Positions 642-60,610 of a DNA stretch of 64,000 nt are shown here, one piece after another. Made by a program: the position numbers and the translations under genes. Under the pieces are notes generated by a model that saw nothing but the letters and a program-made list of their open reading frames with translations, had not been told where the DNA came from and did no database searches. This DNA comes from Escherichia coli (lineage in GTDB: Bacteria; Pseudomonadota; Gammaproteobacteria; Enterobacterales; Enterobacteriaceae), in NCBI RefSeq assembly GCF_003018235.1, contig NZ_CP027437.1; one strand, written 5' to 3'. Within the stretch, counting starts at the first letter, position 1. Each line of letters begins with the position of its first letter.

Positions 642-720
642 CCGGAAAGCGGTTCACAGATCTCGCTTCGTAGCAGGTGGGCCTATTGACGCTGTTGTTT
701 TTTCAACCTAGAGTAAAGGA

Positions 721-868
721 ACAAGGGTAAGGGAGGATTTCTCCCCCCTCTGAATTGGTTGTTAATAAGCCTGGAAACTTACTAGTAACAACACAATCAG
801 TATGATGACGAACTTCATCATAACCCTTTCCTTATACAAGGCCCCTTCCTCGGGAGGGGCTTTCCCGT
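721..868 (+). ncRNA. Sib-type antisense sRNA (QUAD repeat), antitoxin partner of the overlapping ibs toxin ORF
   Basis: Promoter-like TTGACG (686-691), 17-bp spacer, TAGAGT (709-714); covers the opposite-strand ibs ORF; ends at GC hairpin 841-860 followed by U-rich tract; sequence recalled as E. coli QUAD/Sib repeat (AAGGGTAAGGGAGGATT...). Confidence 0.5.
762..821 (-). CDS. Ibs-family type I toxin, 19-aa hydrophobic peptide MMKFVIILIVLLLVSFQAY
   Basis: Hand translation of minus strand: ATG ATG AAG ... TAT TAA; SD-like GGAAAGGG 5 nt upstream; length and composition typical of IbsA-E. Confidence 0.6.
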   Translation of the reverse strand: MMKFVIILIVLLLVSFQAY

Positions 869-4299: not shown

Positions 4300-4455
4300 C
4301 CGCTTATTCTCAGGGCGGGGCGAAATTCCCCACCGGCGGTAAATCAACTCAGTTGAAAGCCCGCGAGCGCTTTGGGTGCGAACTCAAAGGACAGCAGATC
4401 CGGTGTAATTCCGGGGCCGACGGTTAGAGTCCGGATGGGAGAGAGTAACGATTCT
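4300..4455 (+). ncRNA. FMN riboswitch (RFN element) in the ribB leader
   Basis: Conserved RFN motifs GGGGCGAAATTCCCCACCGGCGGTAAA ... AGCCCGCGAGCGC ... GGACAGCAGATCCGGTGTAATTCCGGGGCCGACGGTTAGAGTCCGGATGGGAGAGAGT directly upstream of ribB. Confidence 0.85.
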
Positions 4456-42427: not shown

Positions 42428-42531
42428 ACGTTCCTCCTTTATATGAACTCACCGGAGCAGGCTCCGGTGAGGTGTTGTGAACTTAAGTCTGGACGAAATG
42501 CCCGAAAACGAAAGTTTGAGGCGTAAAAAGC

Positions 42532-49880: not shown

Positions 49881-50921
49881 TCATTTATCGGAAGACGCCT
49901 GCCACAGATTCAGCTCGCCATCGGCGATATGCTGATCAATCTGCGCCAGCTCCTCGGTGCTAAATGTCAGATTATTCAGCGCCTGCACGTTCTCCTCAAG
50001 TTGCTCCGCGCGGCTGGCACCAATCAATACCGACGTCACGCGATCATCTTTCAGCAACCAGCTTAACGCCATTTGCGCCATTGATTGTCCACGTTGCTGT
50101 GCCATTTCATTTAATAACCGCAGGCTGTTGAGGTTGGCTTCGGTGAGCATTTTCGGCGTCAGACCACGAACTTTATTCCCTTCACGATGCATCCGTGAAT
50201 CTTGCGGAATGCCGTTGAGATATTTCCCGGTCAGCAATCCCTGAGCCAGAGGAGTAAAGGCAATGCAGCCCACGCCGTTATTTTGCAGGGTATCCAGCAG
50301 GCCGCTTTTATCCACCCAGCGGTTCAGTAAATTGTAAGAAGGTTGATGAATTAACAGCGGAATTTTCCACTCGCGCAGTAACTCGACCATTTTTTGCGTC
50401 CGCTCTGGCGAGTAAGAGGAGATCCCGACATACAGCGCCTTACCGCTTTGTACCGCATGGGCCAGCGCAGAGGCGGTTTCTTCCATCGGCGTATTTTCAT
50501 CGACGCGATGAGAGTAAAAGATATCGACATACTCAAGCCCCATACGCTTCAGGCTTTGGTCGAGGCTGGCGAGCAGGTATTTACGTGAACCGCCAGAGCC
50601 GTAAGGGCCGGGCCACATATCGTAGCCAGCCTTGGTAGAGATAATCAGTTCATCGCGATAAGCGGCAAAATCCTCCCGCAGCAGGCGACCAAAGTTCTCT
50701 TCTGCGCTTCCTGGAGGCGGCCCGTAATTGTTGGCTAAATCAAAGTGCGTAATGCCTAAATCAAACGCTTTACGCAGGATCGCACGCTGTGATTCCAGCG
50801 CGTTAACGTGACCGAAATTGTGCCATAAACCGAGCGATAACGCGGGCAGGCGTAAACCGCTTTTTCCGCAATAACGGTACTGCATCTGCCCGTAACGCTC
50901 GGGATTCGCTAACCAGACCAT
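49881..50921 (-). CDS. gpr: Gpr (YghZ), L-glyceraldehyde 3-phosphate reductase (aldo-keto reductase)
   Basis: 346-aa ORF matching YghZ. Confidence 0.9.
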   Translation of the reverse strand: MVWLANPERYGQMQYRYCGKSGLRLPALSLGLWHNFGHVNALESQRAILRKAFDLGITHFDLANNYGPPPGSAEENFGRLLREDFAAYRDELIISTKAGYDMWPGPYGSGGSRKYLLASLDQSLKRMGLEYVDIFYSHRVDENTPMEETASALAHAVQSGKALYVGISSYSPERTQKMVELLREWKIPLLIHQPSYNLLNRWVDKSGLLDTLQNNGVGCIAFTPLAQGLLTGKYLNGIPQDSRMHREGNKVRGLTPKMLTEANLNSLRLLNEMAQQRGQSMAQMALSWLLKDDRVTSVLIGASRAEQLEENVQALNNLTFSTEELAQIDQHIADGELNLWQASSDK

Positions 50922-51074
50922 GACCTCTCCTTTCCACCGTTCAATTTCGAAACAATGTTTCTAGTTTAGCGATTCATCAGCGCGTATCCCGTAGTCTGGC
51001 TCACAGAGTGACGAAAAACTGGGCAAAAACACGTGCTTATGCTTTGCTTAAAAAAACACCAATTGAGGAGTGCA

Positions 51075-51965
51075 ATGATGCCGCGTCTGACCGCTAAAGA
51101 TTTCCCACAAGAGTTGCTGGATTACTACGACTATTACGCTCACGGGAAAATTTCGAAACGTGAGTTCCTCAACCTTGCGGCGAAGTATGCGGTAGGCGGG
51201 ATGACGGCATTAGCGTTGTTTGATTTGCTCAAGCCAAATTATGCGCTGGCGACTCAGGTAGAGTTTACCGACCCGGAAATTGTTGCTGAGTACATCACGT
51301 ATTCTTCACCAAATGGTCACGGCGAGGTGCGGGGTTATCTGGTGAAGCCCGCAAAGATGAGCGGCAAAACGCCAGCCGTAGTGGTGGTGCATGAGAATCG
51401 TGGACTGAATCCGTATATCGAAGATGTGGCACGGCGAGTGGCGAAGGCGGGGTATATCGCCCTGGCACCTGACGGCTTAAGTTCCGTTGGAGGTTATCCG
51501 GGTAATGATGATAAAGGTCGTGAGCTGCAACAGCAGGTTGATCCAACCAAACTGATGAATGATTTCTTTGCCGCAATTGAGTTTATGCAACGCTATCCGC
51601 AAGCGACAGGCAAAGTGGGTATTACCGGATTTTGCTATGGCGGTGGCGTATCGAACGCGGCGGCTGTCGCGTATCCGGAACTGGCCTGCGCGGTGCCGTT
51701 TTATGGTCGACAGGCACCCACCGCCGATGTGGCGAAGATTGAAGCGCCTTTACTGCTGCACTACGCGGAACTGGATACCCGAATCAACGAGGGCTGGCCC
51801 GCTTACGAGGCGGCGTTGAAAGCCAATAATAAGGTCTATGAGGCGTATATCTATCCGGGGGTTAATCACGGATTCCATAATGATTCCACGCCCCGTTATG
51901 ACAAATCTGCCGCCGATCTTGCCTGGCAAAGGACGCTGAAATGGTTCGATAAATATCTCTCCTGA
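51075..51965 (+). CDS. yghX: YghX, dienelactone hydrolase family protein (intact here)
   Basis: 296-aa uninterrupted alpha/beta-hydrolase ORF; GAGGAG RBS upstream of ATG 51075. Confidence 0.8.
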   Translation: MMPRLTAKDFPQELLDYYDYYAHGKISKREFLNLAAKYAVGGMTALALFDLLKPNYALATQVEFTDPEIVAEYITYSSPNGHGEVRGYLVKPAKMSGKTPAVVVVHENRGLNPYIEDVARRVAKAGYIALAPDGLSSVGGYPGNDDKGRELQQQVDPTKLMNDFFAAIEFMQRYPQATGKVGITGFCYGGGVSNAAAVAYPELACAVPFYGRQAPTADVAKIEAPLLLHYAELDTRINEGWPAYEAALKANNKVYEAYIYPGVNHGFHNDSTPRYDKSAADLAWQRTLKWFDKYLS

Positions 51966-52083
51966 TAGGTTTATCTCTTACGGGATTACGTCTTAAACAA
52001 GCATGAAAAAATAGCGTGCGCAAAAGTCGTTCTTTGCCTAAAATATCGCTATATATGGCAATATATAGCGAATGAGGTGAACG

Positions 52084-52371
52084 ATGAATAACCATTTTGG
52101 TAAAGGCTTAATGGCGGGATTAAAAGCAACGCATGCCGACAGTGCGGTTAATGTGACAAAATACTGTGCCGATTATAAACGCGGTTTTGTATTAGGCTAC
52201 TCACACCGGATGTACGAAAAGACCGGAGATCGCCAGCTTAGCGCCTGGGAAGCGGGTATTCTGACGCGCCGCTATGGACTGGATAAAGAGATGGTAATGG
52301 ATTTCTTTCGTGAGAATAATTCCTGTTCTACGTTGCGCTTTTTTATGGCCGGTTATCGCCTCGAAAATTGA
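52084..52371 (+). CDS. yghW: YghW, DUF2623 protein
   Basis: 95-aa ORF in the position of K-12 yghW. Confidence 0.75.
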
Positions 52372-52559: not shown

Positions 52560-53678
52560 ATGACTGGAGATAACACCCTCATCCATTCTCACGGCATTAA
52601 CCGTCGTGATTTCATGAAGCTTTGTGCAGCATTAGCCGCCACCATGGGGTTAAGTAGCAAAGCCGCGGCAGAGATGGCCGAATCGGTTACTAACCCGCAG
52701 CGTCCGCCAGTTATCTGGATTGGCGCGCAGGAGTGTACCGGTTGTACGGAATCTCTGCTTCGTGCAACGCATCCAACGGTAGAAAACCTCGTGCTGGAGA
52801 CTATCTCTCTGGAATATCACGAAGTGCTTTCCGCCGCCTTCGGTCATCAGGTCGAAGAGAACAAACATAACGCTCTCGAGAAGTACAAAGGGCAGTATGT
52901 GTTAGTGGTGGATGGTTCCATCCCATTAAAAGATAATGGTATTTATTGCATGGTTGCCGGTGAGCCGATTGTGGATCACATCCGCAAAGCGGCGGAAGGC
53001 GCAGCAGCCATTATCGCTATCGGTTCCTGCTCTGCGTGGGGCGGTGTTGCCGCGGCTGGGGTTAACCCAACTGGCGCAGTCAGCCTGCAAGAAGTTCTGC
53101 CTGGCAAAACCGTTATCAACATTCCGGGCTGCCCGCCGAACCCGCACAACTTCCTCGCGACCGTTGCGCACATTATCACTTACGGCAAGCCGCCGAAACT
53201 GGATGACAAAAACCGTCCGACCTTCGCCTATGGCCGTCTGATTCACGAACACTGTGAACGTCGCCCGCACTTCGATGCTGGTCGCTTTGCGAAAGAGTTC
53301 GGCGACGAAGGCCACCGTGAAGGCTGGTGCCTGTACCACCTCGGCTGTAAAGGGCCAGAAACTTACGGCAACTGCTCAACGCTGCAATTCTGCGACGTTG
53401 GCGGCGTGTGGCCGGTGGCGATTGGTCACCCGTGCTATGGCTGTAACGAAGAAGGTATCGGCTTCCATAAAGGCATCCATCAGCTTGCCAACGTCGAAAA
53501 TCAGACTCCGCGTTCACAGAAACCGGACGTTAACGCTAAAGAAGGCGGCAACGTCTCTGCGGGCGCTATTGGTTTGCTCGGCGGTGTGGTTGGGCTGGTT
53601 GCCGGTGTCAGCGTGATGGCGGTGCGTGAACTGGGTCGTCAGCAAAAGAAAGATAACGCTGACTCACGGGGAGAATAA
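52560..53678 (+). CDS. hybO: HybO, hydrogenase 2 small subunit
   Basis: 372-aa ORF with Tat signal NRRDFMK and FeS cysteine clusters. Confidence 0.95.
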
Positions 53679-59105: not shown

Positions 59106-59173
59106 TGATTAAAGCCGGATGCGGCGTAAATTGAACTGCACCCCAAATGTTGGACACAATCTGACATCTGAAG

Positions 59174-59704
59174 GTGCAGTTTATGAAACATTCATTTGAA
59201 GTAAAACTTGCCGCTGTAAATCATTACCTGGCCGGTCATGCAGGCATCATTTCTACGGCAAAACTCTTTCAACTTTCTCACACCAGCCTCTCACACTGGA
59301 TTAATCTTTTTCTTCTTCACGGTCCTCAGGCACTGGATTGCAGACACAAGCGTAGCTATTCTCCTGAAGATAAACTTTGCGTGGTTCTTTATGCTCTCGG
59401 GCATTCTGAGTCTCTACCCCGGGTAGCTGCCCGGTTTAACATTCCCAGCCACAACACGGTTAAAAACTGGATAAAAGGCTACCGCAAATCTGGTAATGAG
59501 GCCTTTATCAGGCGCAGGAAGGAGAAAAGCATGACCCGTTCTGATGATACCCATGAAAACGAGGCAAACATGACGCCGGAAGAGATGAAGAATGAGCTGC
59601 GTTATCTTCGCGCAGAAAATGCATATCTGAAAGCCATGCAGGAGCATCTCCTGGAAAAAAAGCGCCAGGAGCTGGAGAAAAAACGAAAGTCATCCGGAGC
59701 CTGA
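59174..59704 (+). CDS. IS3-family transposase OrfA (HTH / leucine-zipper part)
   Basis: 176-aa ORF, GTG start; contains slippery heptamer A_AAA_AAG at 59656-59662. Confidence 0.85.
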   Translation: MQFMKHSFEVKLAAVNHYLAGHAGIISTAKLFQLSHTSLSHWINLFLLHGPQALDCRHKRSYSPEDKLCVVLYALGHSESLPRVAARFNIPSHNTVKNWIKGYRKSGNEAFIRRRKEKSMTRSDDTHENEANMTPEEMKNELRYLRAENAYLKAMQEHLLEKKRQELEKKRKSSGA

Positions 59705-59808
59705 GGTGCGGACACTGCCAGTCTGACCTGTTAAAGGCTGCAGGGCTGGCCAGAAGCACGCTGTACTACCAGCTGTCACTGCAGAAGGCTAAGGACAAGT
59801 ATGCTGAT

Positions 59809-60563
<755 letters not shown>

Positions 60564-60610
60564 AAATGCTTTATCCGGCTACATAGCGATAAGCCTGCCA
60601 ATGTTGCGAC

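What the first reader, a model, noticed from the sequence alone, without database searches (positions are those of the whole stretch)
51075..51965. yghX is an intact dienelactone-hydrolase gene here
I recall yghX being a frameshifted pseudogene in K-12. Here it is a continuous 296-codon ORF with a good RBS, so this strain probably keeps the ancestral functional allele.
Basis: partly seen in the sequence, partly recalled or inferred. Interest (0 to 1): 0.3.

Follow-up and report, generated by a model that had tools for sequence, protein, structure and literature searches.

The report
Intact yghX hydrolase gene, known allele
This E. coli strain carries the ordinary, undamaged form of the yghX hydrolase gene, which laboratory strain K-12 and about a quarter of sequenced E. 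coli have lost to two small deletions; this is already recorded in public annotation.

Summary
Window 51078-51965 (+) is an uninterrupted 295-codon yghX gene. The gene scores 586 bits against NCBIfam "YghX family hydrolase" (cutoff 460) and covers the whole Pfam DLH domain. It is nucleotide-identical to the intact yghX annotated in strain ST2747.

K-12 MG1655 yghX is annotated "frameshifted". Against the window it lacks TA at 51186-51187 (codon 37) and C at 51547 (codon 157). Putting those three bases back gives a full-length protein two residues different from the window's.

The damaged allele is not private to K-12. Its first deletion junction occurs in 1,248 of 5,426 complete E. coli genomes (23%). 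Sampled B2 and O157 strains, and other enterobacterial genera, have intact genes. pN/pS among intact alleles is 0.04-0.05, so the intact form is ancestral and under purifying selection.

The protein has the dienelactone-hydrolase Cys186-Asp233-His264 triad. Its mature domain is 98% identical to crystal structure 4ZV9.

Two side observations:
- The first 58 residues look like a twin-arginine (Tat) export signal, with KR here and RR in 27 of 34 distant relatives.
- K-12's published 47-residue "small protein" YqhI is exactly the translated stub of the broken gene.

Verdict: correct, ordinary, already known.

The parts
51078..51965 (+). yghX coding sequence: 295 codons plus a TGA stop. It encodes a YghX-family hydrolase with the dienelactone-hydrolase fold.
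   Evidence: ORF list and translation. NF041440 at 586 bits against a cutoff of 460. Pfam DLH plus YqhI-like. Nucleotide-identical to ST2747 yghX, WP_001360974.1.
51065..51070 (+). Shine-Dalgarno sequence GAGGAG, 7 nt upstream of the ATG at 51078.
   Evidence: Read directly from the sequence. Conserved in K-12, ST95-32 and O157. In K-12 this start is translated, because epitope-tagged YqhI begins MPRL.
51075..51077 (+). It is lineage-specific and probably not the start codon.
   Evidence: It is ACG in K-12, ST95-32 and O157. PGAP starts the identical ST2747 gene at the position equivalent to 51078.
51186..51187 (+). TA dinucleotide within codon 37 (TAT, Tyr37). It is deleted in K-12, and this is the first frameshift.
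   Evidence: Alignments. The K-12 junction 30-mer is present in 1,248 of 5,426 genomes. Strain VG1046-3E9 has this deletion alone.
51547..51547 (+). C within codon 157 (ACC, Thr157). It is deleted in K-12; this second frameshift returns the reading frame to frame 0.
   Evidence: Alignments. The K-12 version of the surrounding 59 bases matches exactly in 1,197 genomes.
51078..51251 (+). Codons 1-58, the N-terminal extension. It holds a conserved n-region (DFPQELLDYYDYYAHG), the motif S-K-R-E-F-L, an Ala/Gly-rich hydrophobic stretch and an A-L-A site. This is a candidate Tat-type signal peptide. Pfam labels residues 1-36 'YqhI-like'.
   Evidence: Pfam PF23678. In 34 representatives, the aligned pair is RR in 27 and KR in 3, and an AxA-type motif (AxA in the alignment consensus) follows the hydrophobic stretch. 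The crystal construct 4ZV9 aligns from residue 59. Against: AF2 pLDDT is 89-95 over this region.
51633..51635 (+). TGC, Cys186, the predicted nucleophile in the motif G-F-C-Y-G-G.
   Evidence: Aligns with residue 123 of Pseudomonas dienelactone hydrolase (the C123S variant 4u2c). Cys in 31 of 34 family representatives.
51774..51776 (+). GAT, Asp233, the triad acid.
   Evidence: Aligns with DLH Asp171. Invariant in 34 of 34 representatives.
51867..51869 (+). CAC, His264, the triad base.
   Evidence: Aligns with DLH His202. His in 31 of 34 representatives.
49881..50921 (-). gpr (yghZ), L-glyceraldehyde-3-phosphate reductase. It is the divergent upstream neighbour.
   Evidence: ORF. Annotation of the colinear ST2747 and K-12 loci.
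52084..52371 (+). yghW (DUF2623). It is the downstream neighbour on the same strand, 118 bp after the yghX stop.
   Evidence: ORF. Annotation.

Best explanation
Window 51078-51965 is the intact, ancestral allele of the E. coli core gene yghX. It encodes a 295-residue alpha/beta hydrolase of the dienelactone-hydrolase (DLH) family. The protein most likely works as a cysteine hydrolase. By analogy with Pseudomonas DLH, Cys186 would attack an ester or lactone carbonyl, His264 and Asp233 would complete the triad, and Glu106 sits where DLH has Glu36. The natural substrate is unknown and is probably not dienelactone, because one of the two DLH residues I recall as carboxylate-binding arginines is replaced (R206 aligns with Asn268). 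The first 58 residues are probably a Tat-type export signal in a KR variant, which would place the enzyme in the periplasm or at the membrane. This step is inferred and is weaker than the rest. In K-12 and at least 23% of sequenced E. coli the gene was inactivated, first by a 2-bp deletion in codon 37 and later, in a nested subset, by a 1-bp deletion in codon 157. Translation of what remains gives the 47-residue stub published as the small protein YqhI. Shown here: gene integrity, family membership, the positions of the K-12 lesions, allele frequency and conservation. Inferred: catalytic activity, expression in this strain and export.
For: Integrity and family. Identity to an annotated intact gene in ST2747. 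K-12 pseudogene flag and lesion positions. Re-inserting the 3 missing bases into the K-12 sequence gives a 295-aa ORF that differs from the window at 2 residues, with 15-17 synonymous against 2 nonsynonymous changes. Frequency: the K-12 junction at site 1 is in 1,248 of 5,426 genomes and the K-12 version of site 2 in 1,197. The intermediate allele in VG1046-3E9 has only the 2-bp deletion. Intact genes in ST95-32 and O157 and in five other enterobacterial genera at 85-92% identity. pN/pS is 0.038-0.053 among intact alleles. Triad alignment to DLH residues 123, 171 and 202, with R81 aligning to R148. Triad conservation in 34 representatives. Crystal structure 4ZV9 from O157:H7 Sakai is 98% identical and lies 0.6 A rmsd from the model; TM-score to 1din is 0.81. 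The start site and ribosome-binding site are used in K-12, where tagged YqhI is detected and is induced at low Mg2+. Tat-like signal: RR in 27 of 34 representatives, a hydrophobic stretch and an AxA-type site in the consensus; weak TIGR01409 hits in 6 of 34 and PF10399 hits in 3 of 34.
Against: No enzymatic or phenotypic data exist for YghX in any strain. A simple sigma-70 consensus scan finds no promoter on the + strand upstream of yghX. About a quarter of E. coli genomes do without the gene, so it is dispensable in at least some niches. On the Tat step: the window protein has KR rather than RR and matches no Tat-signal model itself. AlphaFold2 gives the N-terminal 60 residues pLDDT 89-95 as three short helices, which is unusual for a disordered, cleaved signal. 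DLH R206 is not conserved (Asn268), so a carboxymethylenebutenolidase activity should not be assumed.
Confidence: 0.9

Rival explanations
1. The ORF is intact but is no longer a working gene in this strain. It might be transcriptionally silent or on its way to decay, so 'intact' would not mean 'functional'.
For: A consensus scan finds no sigma-70 promoter upstream on the + strand. The gene has been lost in at least 23% of E. coli genomes. No phenotype or activity is known. The window allele carries a lineage-specific S76 where most relatives have P76.
Against: pN/pS of 0.04-0.05 between intact alleles from distant lineages shows continuing purifying selection. The triad is intact. The upstream region and ribosome-binding site are nearly identical to those of K-12, where the same start is demonstrably translated. 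The S76 column varies among distant homologues.
Confidence: 0.07
2. The N-terminal 58 residues are not an export signal. They would be a folded N-terminal module, a helical cap packed on the hydrolase domain, and YghX would be cytoplasmic.
For: AlphaFold2 models residues 1-60 with pLDDT 89-95 and a whole-chain pTM of 0.93, as three short helices rather than one long helix. The n-region motif LYDxYxH is conserved across distant homologues, which is unusual for signal peptides. Enterobacterial members have KR rather than RR. The window protein does not hit a Tat model.
Against: RRxF(L/I/M), then an Ala/Gly-rich hydrophobic segment, then an AxA-type motif in the consensus, is the canonical Tat signal layout. 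Curated Tat-signal models hit several homologues weakly. The mature domain alone, from residue 59, folds and crystallises (4ZV9). I could not inspect model coordinates, so the supposed packing is unverified.
Confidence: 0.35
3. The K-12 'frameshifts' are sequencing or assembly artefacts, and K-12 yghX is really intact.
For: None found. This is considered only because the finding lists it as a refutation.
Against: The same deletion junctions are present in 1,248 and 1,197 independently assembled complete genomes. An intermediate allele with only the first deletion exists. The 47-residue frameshift product was detected by epitope tagging in K-12.
Confidence: 0.01

Closest known systems
E. coli YghX (NCBIfam NF041440 'YghX family hydrolase'; RefSeq WP_001360974.1; crystal structure PDB 4ZV9 from O157:H7 Sakai)
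   Same: Same gene at the same locus (gpr - yghX - yghW - hybO). The protein is identical to the ST2747 protein. Residues 59-294 are 98% identical to 4ZV9, which lies 0.6 A rmsd from the model.
   Different: Nothing of substance. The window and ST2747 allele has Ser76 and Tyr229 where the commonest E. coli allele has Pro76 and Phe229.
K-12 yghX pseudogene (Swiss-Prot 'Putative hydrolase fragment YghX') and the small protein YqhI
   Same: Orthologous locus at 97.7% nucleotide identity, with the same upstream region, ribosome-binding site and start codon.
   Different: K-12 lacks TA at codon 37 and C at codon 157. Translation stops after 47 residues, made of 36 native and 11 out-of-frame residues, and this product is YqhI. 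The window gene reads through to 295 residues.
Pseudomonas dienelactone hydrolase ClcD (carboxymethylenebutenolidase, EC 3.1.1.45; PDB 1din and variants)
   Same: Alpha/beta-hydrolase DLH fold (TM-score 0.81). The Cys-His-Asp triad is at equivalent positions (C186/D233/H264 against C123/D171/H202). The Glu36 and Arg81 equivalents are kept as E106 and R148.
   Different: Only about 25% identity. DLH Arg206 is Asn268 here. YghX has a 58-residue N-terminal extension that ClcD lacks. No chlorocatechol-pathway genes were noted in the annotated part of the neighbourhood, window 40001-64000.
Tat (twin-arginine) signal peptides, for example that of the neighbouring HybO
   Same: The layout is a basic motif x-R-x-F-L, then a mildly hydrophobic Ala/Gly-rich h-region, a basic residue in the c-region and an A-x-A site. 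Most distant YghX-family members have the full RR.
   Different: The window protein has K-R. The n-region is long and conserved in sequence. The window protein matches no Tat model, and export has not been tested.

Membership tests
YghX family hydrolase (NCBIfam NF041440) | Whole-protein score at or above the curated cutoff of 460 bits, with full-length profile coverage | tested here: met
   586.3 bits, profile positions 1-292 of 292.
YghX family hydrolase (NCBIfam NF041440) | Orthologous genomic position between gpr and yghW/hybO in E. coli | tested here: met
   The window ORFs are colinear with the annotated K-12 and ST2747 loci.
Dienelactone hydrolase family (Pfam PF01738, alpha/beta hydrolase) | Domain match above the gathering score over the whole model | tested here: met
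   164.6 bits against a cutoff of 21, model positions 1-217 of 217.
Dienelactone hydrolase family (Pfam PF01738, alpha/beta hydrolase) | Cys-His-Asp catalytic triad at the DLH positions | tested here: met
   C186, D233 and H264 align with DLH residues 123, 171 and 202. They are conserved in 31, 34 and 31 of 34 representatives.
Dienelactone hydrolase family (Pfam PF01738, alpha/beta hydrolase) | DLH three-dimensional fold | tested here: met
   The model has pLDDT 96. It matches 4ZV9 at TM-score 0.98 and rmsd 0.6 A, and 1din at TM-score 0.81.
Carboxymethylenebutenolidase proper (EC 3.1.1.45, ClcD type) | Both substrate-carboxylate-binding arginines (DLH R81 and R206; their role is recalled from the DLH literature, not tested here) | tested here: not met
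   R81 aligns with R148 and is kept. R206 aligns with Asn268 and is lost. The gene is therefore not filed as a bona fide dienelactone hydrolase.
Carboxymethylenebutenolidase proper (EC 3.1.1.45, ClcD type) | Hydrolysis of dienelactone to maleylacetate | not testable with these tools
   Needs an enzyme assay. No published activity for YghX was found.
Tat-exported proteins | Twin-arginine motif (S/T)-R-R-x-F-L-K in the signal n-region/h-region boundary | tested here: inconclusive
   The window has S-K-R-E-F-L. The second Arg is kept and the first is Lys. 27 of 34 distant representatives have RR. TIGR01409 hits 6 of 34 homologues weakly (best E 0.004) and does not hit the window protein.
Tat-exported proteins | Moderately hydrophobic h-region followed by an A-x-A signal-peptidase site | tested here: met
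   Residues 33-51 have a mean Kyte-Doolittle value of 1.4. K52 lies in the c-region and A-L-A occupies residues 56-58. An AxA-type motif appears in the alignment consensus.
Tat-exported proteins | Tat-dependent export of the folded protein | not testable with these tools
   Needs cell fractionation in wild-type and tat mutant strains.

The most novel reading that the evidence does not exclude
YghX may be a previously unlisted Tat substrate of E. coli. It would be a periplasmic or membrane-tethered cysteine hydrolase whose signal peptide carries a natural KR variant and an unusually conserved n-region (LYDxYxH) that could be a docking site for a dedicated factor. It would have escaped the classic E. 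coli Tat inventories because the reference strain K-12 carries the gene only as a pseudogene. A corollary is that the K-12 'small protein' YqhI, and the Pfam family 'YqhI-like', would be no more than the n-region of this signal peptide plus 11 out-of-frame residues.
Probability: 0.4. Interest if true: 0.4.

Novelty: already known. Interest (0 to 1): 0.1.

Why it matters
It matters little as a discovery. RefSeq already annotates intact yghX in most E. coli and flags the K-12 copy as frameshifted. The mature domain has a deposited crystal structure, and engineers routinely use the K-12 locus as a neutral 'pseudogene' integration site.

Three practical points follow:
- yghX is not a pseudogene in about three quarters of E. 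coli, so 'neutral site' protocols carried over to non-K-12 hosts would disrupt a conserved gene under purifying selection.
- K-12-based inventories, such as lists of Tat substrates or of periplasmic hydrolases, cannot contain this protein.
- The K-12 small protein YqhI, studied as a low-Mg2+-induced small protein, is best read as the translated remnant of this gene.

Tried and rejected
The ORF is continuous and aligns end to end with the family profiles.

(2) 51075 as the start codon: rejected in favour of 51078, because 51075 is ACG in three other lineages and 51078 has the better Shine-Dalgarno spacing.

(3) A single K-12 frameshift: rejected. There are two deletions, of 2 bp and 1 bp, 360 bp apart.

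(4) A K-12-private lesion or a sequencing artefact: rejected by the population counts.

(5) A sigma-70 promoter and an intrinsic terminator for yghX: the consensus scan found nothing convincing on the + strand, so no promoter is claimed.

(6) Literature on YghX function: 27 papers mention yghX. Most that I opened use it as an integration site. One relays an old suggestion that it might be a cPHB polymerase because of its GxCxG motif. Two use the name yghX for an unrelated antisense ORF at modA. None gives an activity.

(7) Literature on Tat export of dienelactone hydrolases: nothing specific.

(8) Inspecting how the N-terminal helices pack in the AF2 model: not possible, because model coordinates are not exposed to the script environment.

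(9) The Rfam and tRNA scans found nothing inside the finding's coordinates.

Full report
**1. What is at the coordinates**

The + strand carries an uninterrupted ORF that ends at the TGA at 51963-51965, with a TAG directly after it.

The sequence reads ...GAGGAGTGCA ATG ATG CCG..., so there are two adjacent ATGs. The first (51075) is ACG in K-12, in ST95-32 and in an O157:H7 strain. PGAP starts the nucleotide-identical gene of strain ST2747 at the second ATG. The Shine-Dalgarno sequence GAGGAG (51065-51070) lies 7 nt from 51078 and only 4 nt from 51075. I therefore take 51078-51965 as the gene, 295 codons.

The product scores 586.3 bits against NCBIfam NF041440 "YghX family hydrolase" (cutoff 460, profile positions 1-292 of 292). 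It covers Pfam DLH PF01738 completely (E 3e-48) and has PF23678 "YqhI-like" at residues 1-36. The neighbours are gpr (49881-50921, minus strand), yghW (52084-52371) and hybO (52560-53678), as in the annotated E. coli loci. This is a real gene with no hidden lesion.

**2. Comparison with K-12**

The 1,151-bp region matches 5,425 of 5,426 complete E. coli genomes. In K-12 MG1655 RefSeq flags yghX as a "frameshifted" pseudogene.

Alignment shows two deletions in K-12 relative to the window:
- TA at window 51186-51187, inside codon 37 (TAT).
- C at window 51547, inside codon 157 (ACC).

The net change is -3 bp, so the reading frame is disturbed for 120 codons and crosses many stops. Translation from the native start ends after 47 residues.

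Re-inserting the three bases into the K-12 sequence gives a clean 295-residue ORF. It differs from the window protein at only two residues (S76P, Y229F), against 15-17 synonymous differences. The inactivation is therefore recent.

The pseudogene status of K-12 yghX is common knowledge. Several metabolic-engineering papers integrate cassettes at "the pseudogene yghX locus", and Swiss-Prot calls it "Putative hydrolase fragment YghX".

**3. How common each allele is**

- The 30-mer spanning the K-12 junction at site 1 occurs in 1,248 of 5,426 genomes, or 23.0%. The 58-mer gives the same count.
- The K-12 version of site 2 (a 59-mer) occurs in 1,197 genomes.
- In a rank-spread sample of 40 genomes, 10 had the K-12 length (-3 bp), 2 had -2 bp, 26 had the intact length, 1 had +3 bp and 1 had only a fragment.

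Strain VG1046-3E9 (-2 bp) has only the TA deletion, on the same 17-substitution background relative to the window as K-12, and is annotated frameshifted. The 2-bp deletion therefore came first, and the 1-bp deletion arose later in a nested subset. Strain CX05 (+3 bp) has an in-frame extra Val and is annotated intact.

The broken allele is thus a common lineage polymorphism, and the window carries the majority state.

**4. Ancestry and selection**

Intact 888-bp genes are present in ST95-32 and O157:H7 Z887. Full-length proteins of 294-298 residues at 85-92% identity are found in Citrobacter koseri, Pseudescherichia, Enterobacter, Kosakonia and Leclercia.

pN/pS is 0.038 (window against ST95-32), 0.049 (window against O157) and 0.053 (ST95-32 against O157). 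The intact allele is ancestral and under strong purifying selection. That it is "functional" is an inference from this and from the catalytic residues.

**5. What the protein is and how it probably works**

PDB 4ZV9 is described as a [quoted passage not shown]. It covers residues 59-294 at 98% identity. An AlphaFold2 model built here (pLDDT 96.3) superposes on it at 0.6 A rmsd, and matches Pseudomonas dienelactone hydrolase 1din at TM-score 0.81.

In the HMMER alignment to the DLH variant 4u2c:
- Cys186 (in G-F-C-Y-G-G) aligns with DLH residue 123.
- Asp233 aligns with Asp171.
- His264 aligns with His202.
- Arg148 aligns with Arg81.
- Glu106 lies in the HENRG motif, where DLH has Glu36.
- DLH Arg206 aligns with Asn268.

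Among 34 representatives of clusters at 50% identity or less, Cys186 is kept in 31, Asp233 in 34 and His264 in 31.

The most likely mechanism is a DLH-type cysteine hydrolase acting on an ester or lactone. That Arg81 and Arg206 bind the dienelactone carboxylate is my recollection of the DLH literature. Because one of them is lost, and because no chlorocatechol-pathway genes were noted in the annotated part of the neighbourhood (window 40001-64000), I do not file YghX as a true carboxymethylenebutenolidase. No activity has been published. An older suggestion that it might be a cPHB polymerase rests only on the GxCxG motif.

**6. The N-terminal 58 residues**

The window protein reads ...HGKIS-KR-EFL-NLAAKYAVGGMTALALFDLL-KPNY-ALA|TQ. 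Across the 34 representatives, the two aligned positions are RR in 27 and KR in 3, namely the window protein and two of its closest relatives in the set. R28 is conserved in at least 90%. An Ala/Gly-rich hydrophobic stretch and an AxA-type motif (AxA in the alignment consensus) follow. This is the layout of a twin-arginine (Tat) signal peptide.

Curated Tat models give weak hits in some homologues: TIGR01409 in 6 of 34 (best E 0.004), PF10399 in 3 of 34 and TIGR02811 in 2 of 34. None hits the window protein. The 4ZV9 chain aligns from residue 59, just after ALA, which fits a construct made without the N-terminal segment.

Four things count against a simple cleaved signal:
- The first Arg is Lys in all the enterobacterial members I read.
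- The n-region motif (L/I)xxLYDxYxH is conserved.
- AlphaFold2 gives residues 1-60 pLDDT 89-95, as three short helices.
- I could not inspect the model coordinates.

I rate Tat export at roughly 0.4-0.6. No paper addresses it.

**7. YqhI**

The 47-residue frame-0 product of the K-12 pseudogene is MPRLTAKDFPQELLDYYDYYAHGKISKREFLNLAAKCGRRDDGISVV. This is letter for letter the sequence published for the small protein YqhI, which was detected by chromosomal epitope tagging (PMC6001520).

YqhI is among 17 small proteins reported as induced at low Mg2+. Its deletion phenotype could not be complemented by YqhI supplied from a plasmid (PMC11429745). That paper does not contain the words pseudogene, yghX or dienelactone.

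YqhI is therefore YghX residues 1-36 plus 11 out-of-frame residues, and Pfam "YqhI-like" is the N-terminus of full-length YghX proteins (27 of 34 representatives match it). For the present finding, this shows that the yghX start codon and ribosome-binding site are used in vivo. The upstream 156 bp differ from K-12 at only four positions.

**8. Verdict**

The gene is fully accounted for by existing annotation and a deposited structure, so it is already known and of low interest.

The only mildly novel threads are the possible Tat export of a protein that is absent from K-12-based inventories, and the identity of YqhI with the pseudogene stub.

Noticed in passing
window 51078-51188 (and K-12 locus L001:2629-2772): K-12's published 47-aa 'small protein' YqhI is exactly the translated stub of the frameshifted yghX: 36 native residues plus 11 out-of-frame residues. 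The low-Mg2+ small-protein paper does not contain the words yghX or pseudogene. Pfam PF23678 'YqhI-like' is the N-terminus of full-length YghX proteins.
   Followed up: yes
window 51078-51251: The YghX N-terminus looks like a Tat signal: SKREFL, a hydrophobic stretch and ALA|TQ. 27 of 34 distant family representatives have RR at the aligned pair. The n-region motif LYDxYxH is unusually conserved, and AF2 models the whole segment with pLDDT 89-95.
   Followed up: partly
window 51869-52100; locus L005:3001-3232: About 670 extra matches in E. coli genomes could be second partial copies of the yghX 3' end plus the yghX-yghW spacer; only one was inspected. In strain IAL7255 this 232-bp fragment sits beside an IS1 and mdtM. 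There it is annotated as an incomplete dienelactone hydrolase, and the native locus is not recovered.
   Followed up: partly
window 52046-52071: A perfect palindrome with 11-bp arms (TCGCTATATAT GGCA ATATATAGCGA) lies 13 bp upstream of the yghW start. It overlaps the -10 region of the constitutive yghW promoter listed for K-12 (TTGCCT-17-GACAAT, PMC3946193). The central bases differ between lineages: GGCA in the window, GACA in K-12 and TACG in O157.
   Followed up: partly
window 59114-60582: An IS3-family element of the IS1397 type lies between hybG and yghU. It is 99.2% identical to the copy at the same site in strain FDAARGOS_448.
   Followed up: partly
window 48234/48235: Strain FDAARGOS_448 has 233 bp between exbD and yghA that the window lacks. 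The nature of this insertion/deletion polymorphism is unknown.
   Followed up: no
window 40001-64000 versus 50950-52100: Mosaic ancestry. Over 24 kb the best-ranked matches (98.6% identity, full coverage) carry the K-12-type frameshifted yghX. The yghX segment itself is 99.9-100% identical to strain ST2747, which has the intact gene. This suggests recombination in the region.
   Followed up: no
window 686-836 (+), 4302-4450 (+), 42466-42529 (-): Rfam matches at gathering threshold elsewhere in the window: Sib antitoxin RNA, an FMN riboswitch and the ES173 sRNA. No tRNA genes were found.
   Followed up: no
locus L004:329-1219 (strain CX05): An in-frame GTG insertion adds a sixth Val to the AVVVVVHENRG strand that precedes the conserved HENRG motif. 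The gene is annotated as intact.
   Followed up: no
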